From: Cetobacterium sp.
GTDB lineage: Bacteria > Fusobacteriota > Fusobacteriia > Fusobacteriales > Fusobacteriaceae
Assembly: GCF_051649505.1 (NCBI RefSeq)
Contig: NZ_JBOFHF010000039.1
DNA length: 64,000 nt
Reading direction: 5' to 3' (one strand)
In this document: positions 25,920 to 28,412 of the stretch, piece by piece
Position numbering within the stretch: position 1 is the first letter of the stretch
How the letters are laid out: each line of letters starts with the position of its first letter
Program-made: the position numbers and the translations under genes
The notes under the pieces: generated by a model
The model's database searches: none
Told to the model about the DNA's origin: nothing
What the model saw: the letters and a program-made list of their open reading frames with translations, nothing else

Positions 25920-25957
25920 ATTCTGAAAAGAGGTTATAAAAAGATTTTTACAAAAAT

Positions 25958-25986
25958 TTGATTTTTAGAAGAAAGAGTAGTATAAT
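25958..25986 (+). promoter_or_regulatory. sigma70 promoter for a candidate antitoxin sRNA
   Basis: TTGATT-N17-TATAAT. Confidence 0.7.
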
Positions 25987-25991
25987 TAACA

Positions 25992-26066
25992 CATAAACGA
26001 TTATAATTCAATGTTAATGACTACATTGTATGGGGAAGAGCTAGGAGTGAGAAACTAGCTCTTTTC
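25992..26066 (+). ncRNA. Candidate type I antitoxin sRNA (~75 nt)
   Basis: Own promoter and terminator, no ORF. 25996-26009 and 26014-26025 are exact reverse complements of 26143-26156 and 26124-26135. Confidence 0.65.
26036..26066 (+). terminator. Intrinsic terminator of the sRNA (and first terminator after buk)
   Basis: AAGAGCTAG/CTAGCTCTT 9-bp stem, loop GAGTGAGAAA, T-rich tail. Confidence 0.85.
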
Positions 26067-26081
26067 TATTTTTTGTAGTTA

Positions 26082-26090
26082 TGATATAAT
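26082..26090 (+). promoter_or_regulatory. Extended -10 promoter for the small toxin-like ORF
   Basis: TGaTATAAT; predicted start near 26097-26098. Confidence 0.6.
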
Positions 26091-26135
26091 TAGTATCAGT
26101 GGTTACTTACCCTAGAAAGGGGGTGTAGTCATTAA

Positions 26136-26195
26136 ATGCAAAGAATTATAATCGTTATTGCCCTTTTTTTACTACTTGCTAAAAAAGGATACTAA
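26136..26195 (+). CDS. 19-aa hydrophobic peptide MQRIIIVIALFLLLAKKGY, candidate Ibs-like type I toxin
   Basis: Strong AGAAAGGGGGTG SD-like element upstream, single hydrophobic helix, terminal Tyr, own promoter and terminator. Absent from the ORF track because of its size. Confidence 0.7.
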   Translation: MQRIIIVIALFLLLAKKGY

Positions 26196-26204
26196 GTAAT
26201 CACT

Positions 26205-26235
26205 AGCTAGGTGCCTCACTCACCTAGCTTTTTTT
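26205..26235 (+). terminator. Intrinsic terminator of the small-ORF mRNA
   Basis: AGCTAGGTG/CACCTAGCT 9-bp stem, loop CCTCACT, T-run. Confidence 0.85.
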
Positions 26236-26259
26236 AAGAAAAAAATACTGGGAGAAGAG

Positions 26260-27093
26260 ATGAAAAGAGTTACGGGGTTATTATTTTTATTACCACAATT
26301 GGTGTTAGGGCAGGATAGTTGGAGAGGGATTCCATATCCTATGAACCGTTGGGGTGTGTCAGTTATGGGTGTTAAGCAGACTGAGAAAGGAAACTTGACA
26401 GAGGCTAGTGTTTCGGGAATAAAAATAGGAGAAAAGTTAACTGCAAATGTAGACTTTTTAAAACCAGAGGATTTGAAGATGGATGCAGATGTTCAAATAG
26501 TTAAGGTGGATTATTTTGTATTACCGTTTTTAAATTTATATGCAATAGGTGGAAAATTAGAGGCAGCAGCTCAGTTTAATTTAGGGAGAGCTAATGTAAA
26601 TTTTGATAGTACAGGTAAACCAGTTTTAGATGGTCTTTTAGGGGCTGTTGGAGATGGGATAGCAGAATATGTTCCTAAAAGTATAGAGTATAAATCAGAA
26701 GGAAAGTTATATGGAGCAGGAGCTTTAATAGCTGGAGAGTACAATAGAGTTTTCTCATCACTTCAATATACATATACAAGAATAGAGATGGATGGAGATG
26801 TAGCAGCTAAAAGTGCTGAGGTTGCAGCAGGAAGAGTTGGTTATGTAGTTTATCGTAATAAAGGCTATTCTGTAACACCTTATTTAGGTGCAGCTTATCA
26901 AAAAACTGAGAGTTCATTATCTGGTCCGATTCCTGGGTTAGAGGGTGTGAATTATCAGTTCCAAATGGAGCTAGAAAAAGTAACACCATCAGTTGGAGTT
27001 TTCACAGTAATAAATGATAGTTTTACAGTTTTAGTGGATTATTCGTTTGGAGATAGAGAGACTTTAGCTATAGATTTAGGGTATAGATTTTAG
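26260..27093 (+). CDS. Hypothetical outer-membrane beta-barrel protein
   Basis: Signal peptide, amphipathic strands, C-terminal LGYRF BAM-type signal. Confidence 0.65.
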   Translation: MKRVTGLLFLLPQLVLGQDSWRGIPYPMNRWGVSVMGVKQTEKGNLTEASVSGIKIGEKLTANVDFLKPEDLKMDADVQIVKVDYFVLPFLNLYAIGGKLEAAAQFNLGRANVNFDSTGKPVLDGLLGAVGDGIAEYVPKSIEYKSEGKLYGAGALIAGEYNRVFSSLQYTYTRIEMDGDVAAKSAEVAAGRVGYVVYRNKGYSVTPYLGAAYQKTESSLSGPIPGLEGVNYQFQMELEKVTPSVGVFTVINDSFTVLVDYSFGDRETLAIDLGYRF

Positions 27094-27152: not shown

Positions 27153-27194
27153 ATATGATATAATCATTTATAAAATAAAAAAAAGGTGATTTAT

Positions 27195-28412
27195 ATGACT
27201 AAGTATGAAGAGTTGTTGAAGTTATATTATAAAAAACAAAATATAACAGAAGAGTTGGAAAAAAGATTAACTAATCCATGTACATATAAAACAGAATTAG
27301 AGATTTTTCCTATTTCAAAAGAAAAAAGAGTTATGGATCAAAAATTTGAACTATTCTATTTACCGATAGGGGATATATTGCTTTTAGAGGAGAAGATATA
27401 TAGACAGAGTGCAGAGATTCAAAGATTGTCTATAAACTTACCGATGATAGCAAGAGTTTCTTGTATCAGAGAGATTATGGTTAATGAAATTATAAAGACA
27501 AATGGAATAGAGGGAGTAAGAACTACTAAGAAAGATGTCTATGAAAGTATGGATTCGAAAAAGAAAACTAGGCTTTCTGGAATTATAAATAAATATAATC
27601 AAATAATAGAAAATAATATTGAGAGAATAGATTCTCCAGAAGAGATTAAAGAGTTATATGAATATATATTTTCTCAGGATATTTTGGAAAATCCAGAAAA
27701 TAGACTGGATGGAAAGCTGTTTAGAAAAGGAAGAATCCATATAAGTAATGGATTGAAAACGGTTCATATAGGAGATACATCTGAAGAGATGATTATATCT
27801 CATATTACAGATTTGGTTAAATTTATGAATAAAAGTGATATTCAAAGTCTTGTAAAAGCGTCGATAGCTCACTATTATTTAGAGTATATTCATCCGTTTT
27901 ACGATGGGAATGGACGTTTTGGAAGATTGCTATTTTCGATGTATTTGGCAAGAAAAACTGATGTTTTTACAGCACTTTCTCTTTCGTATGCAATATTTTC
28001 TGATAAAGATGGATATTCAAAGCTGTTTTTAGATGTTTCAAATCCTAGAAATTGTGGAGAGGTAACATTTTTTGTAAAAGGTATGTTGGAATTTATTTTG
28101 AAAGGGCAAGAAAGTATAATAGAGATGCTAAATCAAAATATAGTGAAGTTAGAATTTGCATTTCAGTATATAAAAGATTGTAGTTTAACAGAGATAGAAA
28201 GTGAGATTTTATCGATATATGTTCAAGGTTATATTTTTGCAGAGAGATCTCATATGAAAGATTCTGAAATTTTAGAGTATTTACCAATAAAAAGTAAATT
28301 GACTCTAAAAAAACATCTAGATTCGTTAGTAGATAAAAATTACCTTCAACAGATATCTAAGAGACCTTCTCAACATAGTTTAAGTGAATTTTTGAAAGGT
28401 GAGTTTGAATAA
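27195..28412 (+). CDS. Fic family protein with C-terminal winged-helix-like tail
   Basis: HPFYDGNGRFGR Fic motif and N-terminal TNGIEG inhibitory-type motif. GTG 27186 is an alternative start. Confidence 0.9.
   Translation: MTKYEELLKLYYKKQNITEELEKRLTNPCTYKTELEIFPISKEKRVMDQKFELFYLPIGDILLLEEKIYRQSAEIQRLSINLPMIARVSCIREIMVNEIIKTNGIEGVRTTKKDVYESMDSKKKTRLSGIINKYNQIIENNIERIDSPEEIKELYEYIFSQDILENPENRLDGKLFRKGRIHISNGLKTVHIGDTSEEMIISHITDLVKFMNKSDIQSLVKASIAHYYLEYIHPFYDGNGRFGRLLFSMYLARKTDVFTALSLSYAIFSDKDGYSKLFLDVSNPRNCGEVTFFVKGMLEFILKGQESIIEMLNQNIVKLEFAFQYIKDCSLTEIESEILSIYVQGYIFAERSHMKDSEILEYLPIKSKLTLKKHLDSLVDKNYLQQISKRPSQHSLSEFLKGEFE

What the first reader, a model, noticed from the sequence alone, without database searches (positions are those of the whole stretch)
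26136..26195. Hidden 19-aa Ibs-like membrane peptide
Seen: MQRIIIVIALFLLLAKKGY, with an early Arg, an 11-residue aliphatic core (IIIVIALFLLL) plus Ala, and a terminal Tyr. Established: E. coli Ibs toxins are 18-19 aa with the same pattern and a terminal Tyr. Inference: a membrane-depolarising toxin or persistence factor far outside the Proteobacteria where Ibs is described.
Basis: partly seen in the sequence, partly recalled or inferred. Interest (0 to 1): 0.7.

Follow-up and report, generated by a model that had tools for sequence, protein, structure and literature searches.

The report
Tiny RNA-guarded membrane peptide gene
The 19-residue reading frame is a real, conserved gene for a tiny membrane peptide. 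It is held in check by a small RNA encoded just upstream, so it looks like a new RNA-controlled (type I) toxin-antitoxin family in fish-gut Cetobacterium and its small plasmids; it resembles E. coli Ibs in design but not detectably in sequence, and its toxicity is untested.

Summary
The ORF is exactly as described: ATG 26136 to TAA 26195 (+), MQRIIIVIALFLLLAKKGY.

Comparative data show it is a gene. About 35 distinct alleles occur in three Fusobacteriaceae genera, fish-gut metagenomes and a 4.1-kb C. somerae plasmid. All are 18-19 codons with an SD at a fixed distance, N-terminal basic residues, a hydrophobic core and a terminal Tyr in all but one.

In the most variable block, T occupies codon position 2 in 46 of 48 codons, against 19 of 48 at positions 1 and 3.

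An ~83-nt sRNA is encoded immediately upstream on the same strand. It is complementary to the peptide mRNA at three sites: codons 3-7, the SD-AUG spacer and the terminator loop. All three sites co-vary between copies. Cognate duplexes average -32.7 kcal/mol and non-cognate ones -14.1.

The mRNA also folds 5' end to 3' end and buries its SD.

Orphan sRNA copies and toxin-deleted copies exist. No intact peptide gene lacks its sRNA where the upstream DNA is assembled.

An Ibs profile does not recognise the peptide (E=410). I read it as an Ibs analogue in a new type I toxin-antitoxin-like family, not an Ibs family member.

The parts
25958..25986 (+). Promoter P1 of the upstream small RNA (TTGATT-17-TATAAT)
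   Evidence: 10 of 12 match. The -10 element is conserved in the paralogue and relatives.
25993..26075 (+). Candidate antitoxin sRNA, about 83 nt: single-stranded 5' tail, stem-loop SL1 (26009-26028), terminator T1 (stem 26030-26069, loop 26045-26054, U-run to 26075). The ends are predicted, not mapped.
   Evidence: Fold z=-4.75. The consensus structure has compensatory pairs in T1. Its short internal ORF is not conserved.
25996..26009 (+). sRNA pairing block 1 (5' tail), complementary to codons 3-7 of the peptide ORF
   Evidence: inverted repeat I1. It co-varies in every paralogue.
26014..26025 (+). sRNA pairing block 2 (SL1 loop), complementary to the SD-AUG spacer
   Evidence: I4, 12 nt, 100% complementary. 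It co-varies across copies.
26082..26090 (+). Promoter P2 of the peptide mRNA: extended -10 (TGaTATAAT)
   Evidence: Read. In 24 of 26 distinct modules a TGnTAnA[AC]T motif ends 7-8 nt before the conserved GTGGTT.
26097..26236 (+). Peptide mRNA, about 140 nt (predicted ends)
   Evidence: Fold -40.4 kcal/mol, z=-3.87. Consensus structure of 11 copies. Covariance model R1.
26098..26109 (+). 5' arm of the 5'-3' long-distance helix of the mRNA
   Evidence: I6. Two pairs show compensatory changes; CG and UA alternate with the TAG/TAA stop codon.
26115..26125 (+). Shine-Dalgarno GAAAGGGGGTG, partly buried in a small hairpin (26109-26113 with 26120-26124)
   Evidence: 9-10 nt before the start codon in all 19-codon copies; hairpin conserved.
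26124..26135 (+). mRNA target of sRNA block 2 (between SD and AUG)
26136..26195 (+). The finding: 19-codon ORF plus stop, MQRIIIVIALFLLLAKKGY
26143..26156 (+). mRNA target of sRNA block 1 (codons 3-7)
26162..26188 (+). Hairpin inside the ORF (CCUUUUUU with AAAAAAGG)
   Evidence: 8 pairs, 2 of them with compensatory changes.
26193..26204 (+). 3' arm of the long-distance helix; it includes the stop codon
26205..26236 (+). Terminator T2 of the mRNA (stem 26205-26229, loop 26214-26220, U-run). Its loop is complementary to the T1 loop.
   Evidence: Loop-loop complementarity co-varies in five sequence classes and appears as I3.

Best explanation
The ORF is a genuine gene for a 19-residue peptide with one short hydrophobic helix, and it is the toxin half of a type I toxin-antitoxin-like cassette. 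Shown by sequence: it has its own extended -10 promoter, a strong SD, a conserved 19-codon frame and an intrinsic terminator. Immediately upstream on the same strand lies a separate promoter-to-terminator unit for an ~83-nt RNA. That RNA's 5' tail, first hairpin loop and terminator loop are complementary to codons 3-7, the SD-AUG spacer and the terminator loop of the peptide mRNA. All three contacts co-vary from copy to copy. The mRNA also pairs its 5' end with the stop-codon region and buries its SD. Inferred: the sRNA binds its own mRNA, probably starting loop-to-loop, covers the ribosome-binding region and blocks translation, perhaps also triggering cleavage of the duplex. The self-locked mRNA fold keeps the primary transcript poorly translatable. 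If the shorter-lived RNA is lost, for example after plasmid loss, the peptide is made, inserts into the cytoplasmic membrane and damages it, as Ibs, Hok and Fst do. Because copies sit on small rep/mob plasmids, plasmid addiction is the most likely original role, and chromosomal copies such as the one in this window are derived.
For: Coding evidence. Every intact copy is 19 codons (18 in one subfamily). That covers 11 distinct alleles from related genomes, 3 divergent ones, the plasmid copy and all 29 metagenome hits, which give 21 distinct peptides, 28 of 29 ending in Tyr. The start codon lies 9-10 nt after GAAAGGGGGTG. In the hypervariable codons 4-7 (12 distinct blocks, 57% mean nucleotide identity) T is at codon position 2 in 46/48 codons and at positions 1 and 3 in 19/48 each; 46/48 residues are I, L, F or V. 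Frame +1 is full of stops and frame +2 has a conserved stop.

RNA partner. BLAST finds the internal inverted match. Cognate duplexes average -31.1 kcal/mol against -10.7 for non-cognate pairs in 10 copies, and -32.7 against -14.1 in 28 modules. Terminator-loop complementarity co-varies. sRNA and mRNA structures carry compensatory pairs. P2 is present in 24 of 26 distinct modules.

Toxin-antitoxin-like population genetics. The cassette is multi-copy within genomes. At least 8 loci keep the sRNA without the ORF. One copy has the toxin precisely deleted, one lacks the SD and one is C-terminally truncated. Every intact ORF whose upstream DNA is assembled has its sRNA.

Plasmid link. An intact, unannotated copy sits on the 4,104-bp C. 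somerae plasmid NZ_CP092525.1, which otherwise carries rep, mobC and a relaxase. Rep, MobC or relaxase homologues lie next to roughly a dozen other copies.

Expression. The locus occurs in contigs of fish-gut metatranscriptome runs.
Against: No experiment bears on toxicity, translation or RNA pairing; all of this is sequence inference. The RNA-run evidence is assembled contigs without strand information and could include DNA. The whole ORF overlaps RNA-structure constraints (sRNA target, internal hairpin, 5'-3' helix), so the conserved KKGY-stop end could be kept for RNA reasons and dN/dS cannot be interpreted. Variable columns are spread evenly over codon positions (11, 9, 11). The hydrophobic stretch of 11-12 residues is short for a membrane span. 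One allele group lacks P2, and the full P1-to-T2 transcript folds into the same pairing in cis, so the upstream element might act partly as a leader. No match to any curated toxin family.
Confidence: 0.62

Rival explanations
1. The peptide is real and under sRNA control but is not a toxin. It would be a small membrane protein with a regulatory or structural role, such as modulating a transporter or a plasmid function, whose level must be tightly limited.
For: The coding and sRNA evidence is the same as for the main explanation. Many bacterial membrane peptides under 50 aa are regulators rather than toxins (established knowledge). The chromosomal copy in the window sits between ordinary genes, buk and an outer-membrane protein gene.
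Against: Several features are hallmarks of type I toxins and are not known for regulatory small proteins: multi-copy cassettes with private, co-varying RNA partners; a self-locking mRNA fold; orphan sRNAs with deleted or decayed peptide genes; and carriage as the only accessory cassette recognised here on a 4.1-kb rep/mob plasmid that also has two hypothetical genes. No conserved protein-gene neighbour is shared between copies.
Confidence: 0.15
2. The upstream element works mainly in cis. Transcripts from P1 read through T1, and the 5' segment folds back on the initiation region of the ORF as a long leader, so there is no free antitoxin RNA.
For: The 244-nt P1-to-T2 transcript folds so that the 5' segment pairs with the SD spacer, AUG and codons 1-7 (-82.9 kcal/mol, z=-7.9). 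One allele group (L101/L111) has no P2 motif between T1 and the mRNA. Covariation cannot tell cis pairing from trans pairing.
Against: T1 is a strong, conserved intrinsic terminator with a long U-run and compensatory stem changes. An extended -10 at a fixed 7-8 nt before the mRNA's 5' helix is kept in 24 of 26 modules. At least 8 loci keep the sRNA unit alone. In one RNA run, k-mers of T1 had word depth 130-150 against about 7 for the ORF; this is weak, because T1 is shared between paralogues.
Confidence: 0.1
3. The ORF is not translated. The locus is a purely RNA-level pair, for example a plasmid copy-number or incompatibility antisense system, and the frame is incidental.
For: Small plasmids commonly use antisense RNAs for replication control (established knowledge), and copies lie next to rep genes. 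Every part of the ORF overlaps an RNA pairing element.
Against: The frame length is invariant in about 35 alleles. T at codon position 2 shows a 3-nt periodicity in the freely varying block. A canonical SD sits at the correct distance, and divergent members have AAGGAGGTG. On the plasmid the cassette lies downstream of rep, not in its leader, and chromosomal copies have no rep nearby.
Confidence: 0.08
4. The peptide is a true evolutionary member of the Ibs family, by ancient ancestry or horizontal transfer, whose antitoxin gene has been rearranged.
For: It has the same length, an N-terminal basic residue, a hydrophobic core and a terminal Tyr. Both systems use two recognition regions, one coding and one at the initiation site (PMC4147584). 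Profile searches lose power quickly at 19 aa: a profile of the KKGY subfamily detects its own divergent subfamilies only at E 0.09 to 59.
Against: Profile tests in both directions give no signal (E=410 and E above 470). The C-terminal motifs differ: SF-x-x-Y in Ibs against [KE]K-x-Y here. The gene layout differs, nothing matches an Rfam family including Sib/QUAD, and Ibs is reported only in Enterobacteriaceae and Pasteurellaceae, with apparent homologues in H. pylori (PMC2887945).
Confidence: 0.05

Closest known systems
Ibs/Sib type I toxin-antitoxin modules of E. coli (ibsA-E / sibA-E)
   Same: The peptide is 18-19 aa with a basic residue near the N terminus, an aliphatic core and a C-terminal Tyr. 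The modules are multi-copy, with paralogue-specific RNA recognition. The repressor RNA contacts one site in the coding region and one at the translation initiation region, like Sib TRD1 and TRD2 (PMC4147584).
   Different: No profile-level sequence similarity. Sib lies on the opposite strand and overlaps the whole ORF; here the sRNA is a separate gene upstream on the same strand, so complementarity is not automatic and is kept by co-variation. There is a third, terminator-loop contact. The peptide carries Lys residues near its C terminus. The host phylum is Fusobacteriota.
par of Enterococcus faecalis plasmid pAD1 (Fst mRNA RNA I / antitoxin RNA II)
   Same: Complementarity is dispersed rather than continuous: 5' segments cover the toxin's initiation region and the terminator loops can also pair (par features from established knowledge and PMC4147584; here). 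It is plasmid-borne with chromosomal copies.
   Different: The par RNAs are transcribed convergently and share one bidirectional terminator; here the two genes are in tandem with two separate terminators. Fst is about 33 aa, whereas this peptide is 19 aa.
hok/sok (plasmid R1) and aapA1/IsoA1 (H. pylori) toxin mRNAs
   Same: A 5'-3' long-distance helix and SD sequestration would keep the full-length toxin mRNA poorly translatable (known systems from established knowledge and PMC6733600). A plasmid-addiction setting is plausible.
   Different: Those antitoxins are cis-antisense on the opposite strand, and hok uses a leader ORF (mok). Whether this mRNA needs 3' processing for activation is unknown.
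tisB/istR-1, shoB/ohsC, zor/orz, dinQ/agrB (E. coli)
   Same: The antitoxin gene is adjacent and does not overlap the toxin gene, with limited complementarity (PMC4147584).
   Different: In those systems the sRNA is divergently transcribed and pairs in the long 5' UTR, at a standby site and not at the start codon or coding region. Here it is co-directional and covers the initiation region and codons 3-7.

Membership tests
Type I toxin-antitoxin system (generic) | Small (under 60 aa) hydrophobic peptide ORF with its own translation signals | tested here: met
   19 aa, SD 10 nt upstream, frame conserved in about 35 alleles; coding periodicity.
Type I toxin-antitoxin system (generic) | Adjacent RNA gene whose product can base-pair with the toxin mRNA | tested here: met
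   Three complementary blocks. Cognate duplexes average -32.7 kcal/mol and non-cognate -14.1 over 28 modules. Loop-loop covariation. The pairing itself is predicted, not measured.
Type I toxin-antitoxin system (generic) | sRNA and mRNA exist as separate transcripts | tested here: inconclusive
   Conserved P1, T1, P2 and T2 and orphan sRNA units argue for separate transcripts. The only RNA data are unstranded contigs, and a cis fold is possible.
Type I toxin-antitoxin system (generic) | The peptide is toxic when overproduced and the RNA neutralises it | not testable with these tools
   Only indirect evidence: toxin-deleted or decayed copies with the sRNA retained, and no intact ORF without its sRNA.
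Ibs/Sib | 18-19 aa peptide with N-terminal basic residue, hydrophobic core and C-terminal Tyr | tested here: met
   IbsA-E read from NC_000913 compared with the family alleles.
Ibs/Sib | Sequence recognised by an Ibs profile | tested here: not met
   The Ibs HMM ranks the window peptide 1199 of 57,458 (E=410) and does not list the paralogue. The reverse HMM ranks Ibs below 2,200. Each left-out Ibs is found at rank 1. Natural N-extended ORFs of relatives give 0 families in Pfam and NCBIfam. Caveat: power at 19 aa is low for divergent relatives.
Ibs/Sib | Antitoxin RNA encoded on the opposite strand and overlapping the whole ORF; Sib (QUAD) RNA family | tested here: not met
   The E. coli layout is shown. 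Here the complementary RNA gene is upstream on the same strand, no terminator was found on the opposite strand, and there is no Rfam match.
par (Fst / RNA II) | Convergent transcription with a shared bidirectional terminator; Fst-type toxin of about 33 aa | tested here: not met
   The genes are in tandem with separate terminators T1 and T2, and the peptide is 19 aa. No profile comparison with Fst was run.
par (Fst / RNA II) | Dispersed complementarity covering the initiation region plus the terminator loops | tested here: met
   Blocks 1 and 2 and terminator loops. This is a resemblance in how it works, not evidence of membership.

The most novel reading that the evidence does not exclude
This is the first type I toxin-antitoxin family of Fusobacteriota and has a gene layout I could not find described. 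The antitoxin sRNA is encoded in tandem, upstream on the same strand as the toxin mRNA. Each copy keeps a private three-site recognition code (5' tail to codons 3-7, hairpin loop to SD-AUG spacer, terminator loop to terminator loop) through co-evolution. It drives addiction of small Cetobacterium plasmids through a 19-residue peptide that has converged on the Ibs design.
Probability: 0.5. Interest if true: 0.72.

Novelty: new variant of a known kind. Interest (0 to 1): 0.6.

Why it matters
A 2025 paper states that type I toxin-antitoxin systems are known only from Proteobacteria, Firmicutes and Tenericutes, and it adds one cyanobacterial case (PMC12390103). Current search pipelines look for the antitoxin on the opposite strand. 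A Fusobacteriota family whose antitoxin lies on the same strand would widen both the taxonomic range and the search rules.

In this layout complementarity is not a by-product of overlapping genes. The three co-varying contacts across dozens of natural alleles are therefore a ready-made map of which RNA-RNA contacts decide cognate recognition. That map is directly testable with swaps and compensatory mutants.

A 19-residue peptide that arrived at the Ibs design independently would help define the minimal requirements for membrane-active toxins.

Cetobacterium somerae is a dominant fish-gut symbiont of interest to aquaculture, so a stabilising cassette on its small plasmids would also be a practical tool for vector design.

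Tried and rejected
- **Chance ORF:** rejected on conservation, although the composition alone fits 5 ORFs in the genome.
- **Ibs membership:** tested with profiles in both directions and with leave-one-out controls, and not met.
- **Curated protein families:** Pfam and NCBIfam scans need at least 20 aa, so I used natural in-frame N-extended ORFs of three relatives, with no hit. The window peptide could not be scanned because a stop codon lies directly upstream.
- **Large protein database:** Structure prediction and the protein atlas need at least 30 aa and were not tried.
- **Rfam:** a permissive scan gave only noise.
- **Phage origin:** no match in the phage collection or in viral contigs.
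- **Peptide encoded in the sRNA:** its short ORF is not conserved in the paralogue.
- **Rep-leader or copy-control element:** rejected because the cassette lies downstream of rep on the plasmid and chromosomal copies have no rep.
- **Two inverted copies in genome G004:** an artefact. The contig is a perfect 6-kb palindrome.
- **dN/dS:** not attempted, because every part of the ORF overlaps an RNA pairing element. Simple counts by codon position were uninformative (11, 9, 11).
- **Transcription evidence:** only unstranded Logan contigs were available, so transcript ends and strand could not be established.
- **Wider distribution:** the covariance model found nothing outside three genera of one family among 131 family genomes and a 151-genome phylum sample. 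This means not found in those searched, not absent.

Full report
**Observation**

The window carries ATG at 26136, 19 sense codons and TAA at 26193-26195 on the + strand. The product is MQRIIIVIALFLLLAKKGY. A strong SD-like GAAAGGGGGTG lies at 26115-26125, and an intrinsic terminator at 26205-26229 is followed by a T-run.

I read IbsA-E from NC_000913. They are 18-19 aa, begin MM[KR], have an aliphatic core and end in Tyr.

**Is it more than chance?**

Not by composition. The genome is 70% A+T. Among 57,458 ORFs of 12-45 aa, 5 fit '17-21 aa, hydrophobic run of at least 10, terminal Y'. Of 27,613 ORFs of 15-25 aa, 127 have such a run.

The case rests on comparison with relatives:
- The same genome has a second copy of the whole ~280-nt region at 74% identity. 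Its ORF is also 19 codons, MLKLIFVGILFLLLVEKVY.
- BLAST and a covariance model of the mRNA found copies in 12 of 131 genomes of the family. By genus that is 7 of 22 in the window's own genus (Cetobacterium by record titles), 1 of 3 in a second genus and 3 of 11 in a third. None were found in 45 genomes of the sister family or elsewhere in a phylum sample.
- A pattern scan of metagenome contigs gave 29 more loci, some from fish samples by contig name.
- Every intact copy encodes exactly 19 residues, or 18 in one small subfamily. That covers 11 distinct alleles in genomes, 3 divergent ones, one on a plasmid and 21 distinct peptides in the 29 metagenome loci.
- All have one to three basic residues at positions 2-4, a hydrophobic core containing an almost invariant Phe11, a [KE][KN]-x end and a terminal Tyr. 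The single exception ends in His.

**Coding signature**

Codons 4-7 lie in a block that differs freely between copies: 12 distinct versions with 57% mean pairwise identity. T nevertheless occupies codon position 2 in 46 of 48 codons, against 19 of 48 at positions 1 and 3. As a result 46 of 48 residues are I, L, F or V. The copies are related, so the chi-square value there overstates significance.

The start codon is always 9-10 nt after the SD. Divergent members have a canonical AAGGAGGTG. Frame +1 is full of stops and frame +2 has a conserved stop.

I did not compute dN/dS, because every part of the ORF also lies in an RNA pairing element (see below).

**RNA context**

Directly upstream on the same strand are a sigma-70-type promoter (25958-25986, 10 of 12 match) and a strong terminator hairpin with a U-run (about 26030-26075). 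Together they delimit an RNA of about 83 nt.

It folds into a single-stranded 5' tail, a stem-loop with a conserved stem and a variable loop, and the terminator (z=-4.75). The terminator shows compensatory changes in the consensus fold. Its own short ORF is not conserved.

Three segments of this RNA are complementary to the peptide mRNA:
- 25996-26009 pairs with codons 3-7 (26143-26156).
- The hairpin loop, 26014-26025, pairs with the SD-AUG spacer (26124-26135, 12 of 12).
- The terminator loop pairs with the loop of the mRNA's terminator.

Because both genes are on the same strand, this complementarity is not a by-product of overlap. In every copy I read, both partners have changed together:
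- Predicted duplex energy between the sRNA 5' region and the mRNA initiation region averages -31.1 kcal/mol for cognate pairs and -10.7 for non-cognate pairs in 10 copies.
- In 28 distinct modules including metagenomic ones, the values are -32.7 and -14.1.
- The terminator loops fall into five co-varying sequence classes.

An extended -10 (TGnTAnA[AC]T) ends 7-8 nt before the conserved 5' end of the mRNA in 24 of 26 distinct modules. This argues for a separate mRNA promoter.

The mRNA itself folds so that its first 11-12 nt pair with the stop-codon region. Two of those pairs show compensatory changes, and TAA/TAG alternates with U/C in the 5' arm. The fold also places the SD in a small hairpin and forms a hairpin inside the ORF.

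A 5'-3' lock plus SD sequestration is typical of type I toxin mRNAs such as hok and aapA1 (PMC6733600 and established knowledge).

**Population pattern and genomic setting**

- At least eight loci keep the sRNA unit without the peptide gene.
- One locus has the peptide gene precisely removed, leaving both terminators.
- One copy lacks the SD region, and another is truncated and has no sRNA.
- A short contig from an RNA run joins 26092 to 26231. It is a toxin-less allele of this very locus.
- Every intact peptide gene whose upstream DNA is assembled has its own sRNA.

This asymmetry is what one expects if the peptide is harmful without its RNA.

An intact, unannotated copy (MLRVLIVIVLFFLLNKKGY) lies on the 4,104-bp C. 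somerae plasmid NZ_CP092525.1. That plasmid otherwise carries rep, mobC, a relaxase and two hypothetical genes. Homologues of that Rep, MobC or relaxase lie beside roughly a dozen other copies.

No copy was found in phage collections.

The window's own copy is chromosomal, between buk and an outer-membrane protein gene, in a stretch that varies between close relatives.

**Expression**

Two fish-gut metatranscriptome runs hold 76% of the sampled words of the 256-nt locus but only 39% of an 801-nt stretch that includes the flanks. Contigs from RNA runs cover 25927-26387, 26033-26210 and 26063-26260.

These are assembled contigs without strand information, and DNA carry-over cannot be excluded. 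I count this only as weak support.

**Comparison with Ibs**

The resemblance in design is real. Both are 18-19 aa with an N-terminal basic residue, an aliphatic core and a terminal Tyr. Both are multi-copy. Both have a repressor RNA with one recognition site in the coding region and one at the initiation site, as described for Sib TRD1 and TRD2 (PMC4147584).

Membership is not supported:
- An HMM of IbsA-E ranks the window peptide 1199th of 57,458 small ORFs (E=410) and does not list the paralogue.
- An HMM of the Cetobacterium peptides finds only the two own copies (E 1e-12 and 9e-10) and ranks Ibs below 2,200.
- The method works within Ibs: each left-out member is found at rank 1, with E from 1e-7 to 4e-10.
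- The method loses power fast. A profile of one Cetobacterium subfamily finds its own divergent relatives only at E 0.09 to 59. Deep common ancestry therefore cannot be excluded; there is simply no evidence for it.
- The antitoxin layout differs. Sib lies on the opposite strand and fully overlaps the ORF.
- Rfam, Pfam and NCBIfam give nothing.
- Ibs is reported only from Enterobacteriaceae and Pasteurellaceae, with apparent homologues in H. pylori (PMC2887945).

In the way its RNAs recognise each other, the system is closest to par of pAD1. That system has dispersed 5' complementarity over the initiation region plus terminator loops, and it is plasmid-borne. However, par is convergent with a shared terminator and encodes a 33-aa toxin.

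**Mechanism proposed**

Shown by sequence:
- two co-directional transcription units;
- three co-varying complementary sites;
- a self-pairing mRNA;
- a conserved 19-codon hydrophobic frame.

Inferred:
- the sRNA binds its own mRNA, probably first through exposed loops;
- it occludes the region from the SD to codon 7 and blocks initiation;
- when the sRNA is lost, the peptide is made and perturbs the membrane;
- on plasmids this gives post-segregational killing.

**Rivals**

The rivals are a non-toxic regulatory membrane peptide, a mainly cis-acting leader, an untranslated RNA-only pair and true Ibs homology.
- For the leader: the full read-through transcript folds into the same pairing, and one allele group lacks P2.
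- The RNA-only reading is disfavoured by the coding periodicity.

**Novelty**

I found no paper describing type I systems in Fusobacteriota or in Cetobacterium. A 2025 paper states they are known only from Proteobacteria, Firmicutes and Tenericutes, and it adds one cyanobacterial case (PMC12390103). The reviews and the database paper that I searched for these terms describe overlapping antisense or divergent neighbours, not a same-strand tandem antitoxin (PMC4147584, PMC8594479). My literature search covers open-access texts only.

Earlier notes of this scan on this same stretch had flagged the tandem layout, the terminator-loop complementarity and the 5'-3' lock. I tested all three here and they hold. 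Other new type I-like families noted by the scan in other genomes all have opposite-strand antisense RNAs.

**Verdict**

It is an Ibs analogue rather than an Ibs family member, and toxicity is untested.

Noticed in passing
L091 (NZ_CP092525.1, 4,104-bp C. somerae plasmid), across the record origin, minus strand: An intact sRNA-plus-peptide cassette lies directly downstream of rep and is not annotated in the record. Apart from two hypothetical genes, it is the only accessory element recognised here on this rep/mobC/relaxase plasmid.
   Followed up: partly
L084 (G004:C7:4000-16500): The contig is a perfect 6,017-nt inverted duplication with 119 nt between the arms. It carries mobC, relaxase and rep-like genes and the cassette. 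It is most likely an assembly artefact of a small plasmid, so the 'two copies' in that genome are probably one.
   Followed up: partly
window 26092/26231 (joint in run X4); L043 (G009:C44): Toxin-less alleles. One short contig from an RNA run skips 26093-26230 at this very locus, with 7 other letters in between. A genomic paralogue keeps the sRNA and both terminators but lacks the whole peptide mRNA body.
   Followed up: partly
L040 (G013:C140), oriented copy: An orphan copy of the sRNA with its terminator and the P2-like extended -10 is followed by a different ORF, which begins MSFFMYVFLIACVYYNKKGNPWF and has a hydrophobic N terminus. It might be another cargo under the same RNA scaffold. No complementarity was obvious by eye.
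   Followed up: no
L101 and L111 (metagenome contigs): One allele group (MKKKLFAIVLFLLIVEKVY) has no P2 motif. The sRNA terminator's U-run abuts the mRNA 5' helix, so there the peptide mRNA could arise only by read-through or processing.
   Followed up: no
L041 (G015:C31): A variant copy has the usual sRNA pairing blocks but a 31-codon ORF (MMSKIIFIGILFLLIFFIYYKNILDILSHIF) and no recognisable 3' helix or terminator of the family.
   Followed up: no
window 26260-27093 and 27186-28412; L088 2351-3271: The signal-peptide beta-barrel-like protein just downstream is only 73.7% identical in the close relative G023, where buk is 98.6% identical. Fic-domain genes (HPFxDGNGR motif) flank the cassette: one downstream in the window, and another inserted between buk and the cassette in G009. 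This is a variable accessory patch after buk.
   Followed up: partly
Contig ends in G013, G015, G105, G021, G023, G006: Many copies sit within a few hundred bases of contig ends. The repeat therefore breaks short-read assemblies, and copy numbers per genome are underestimates.
   Followed up: no
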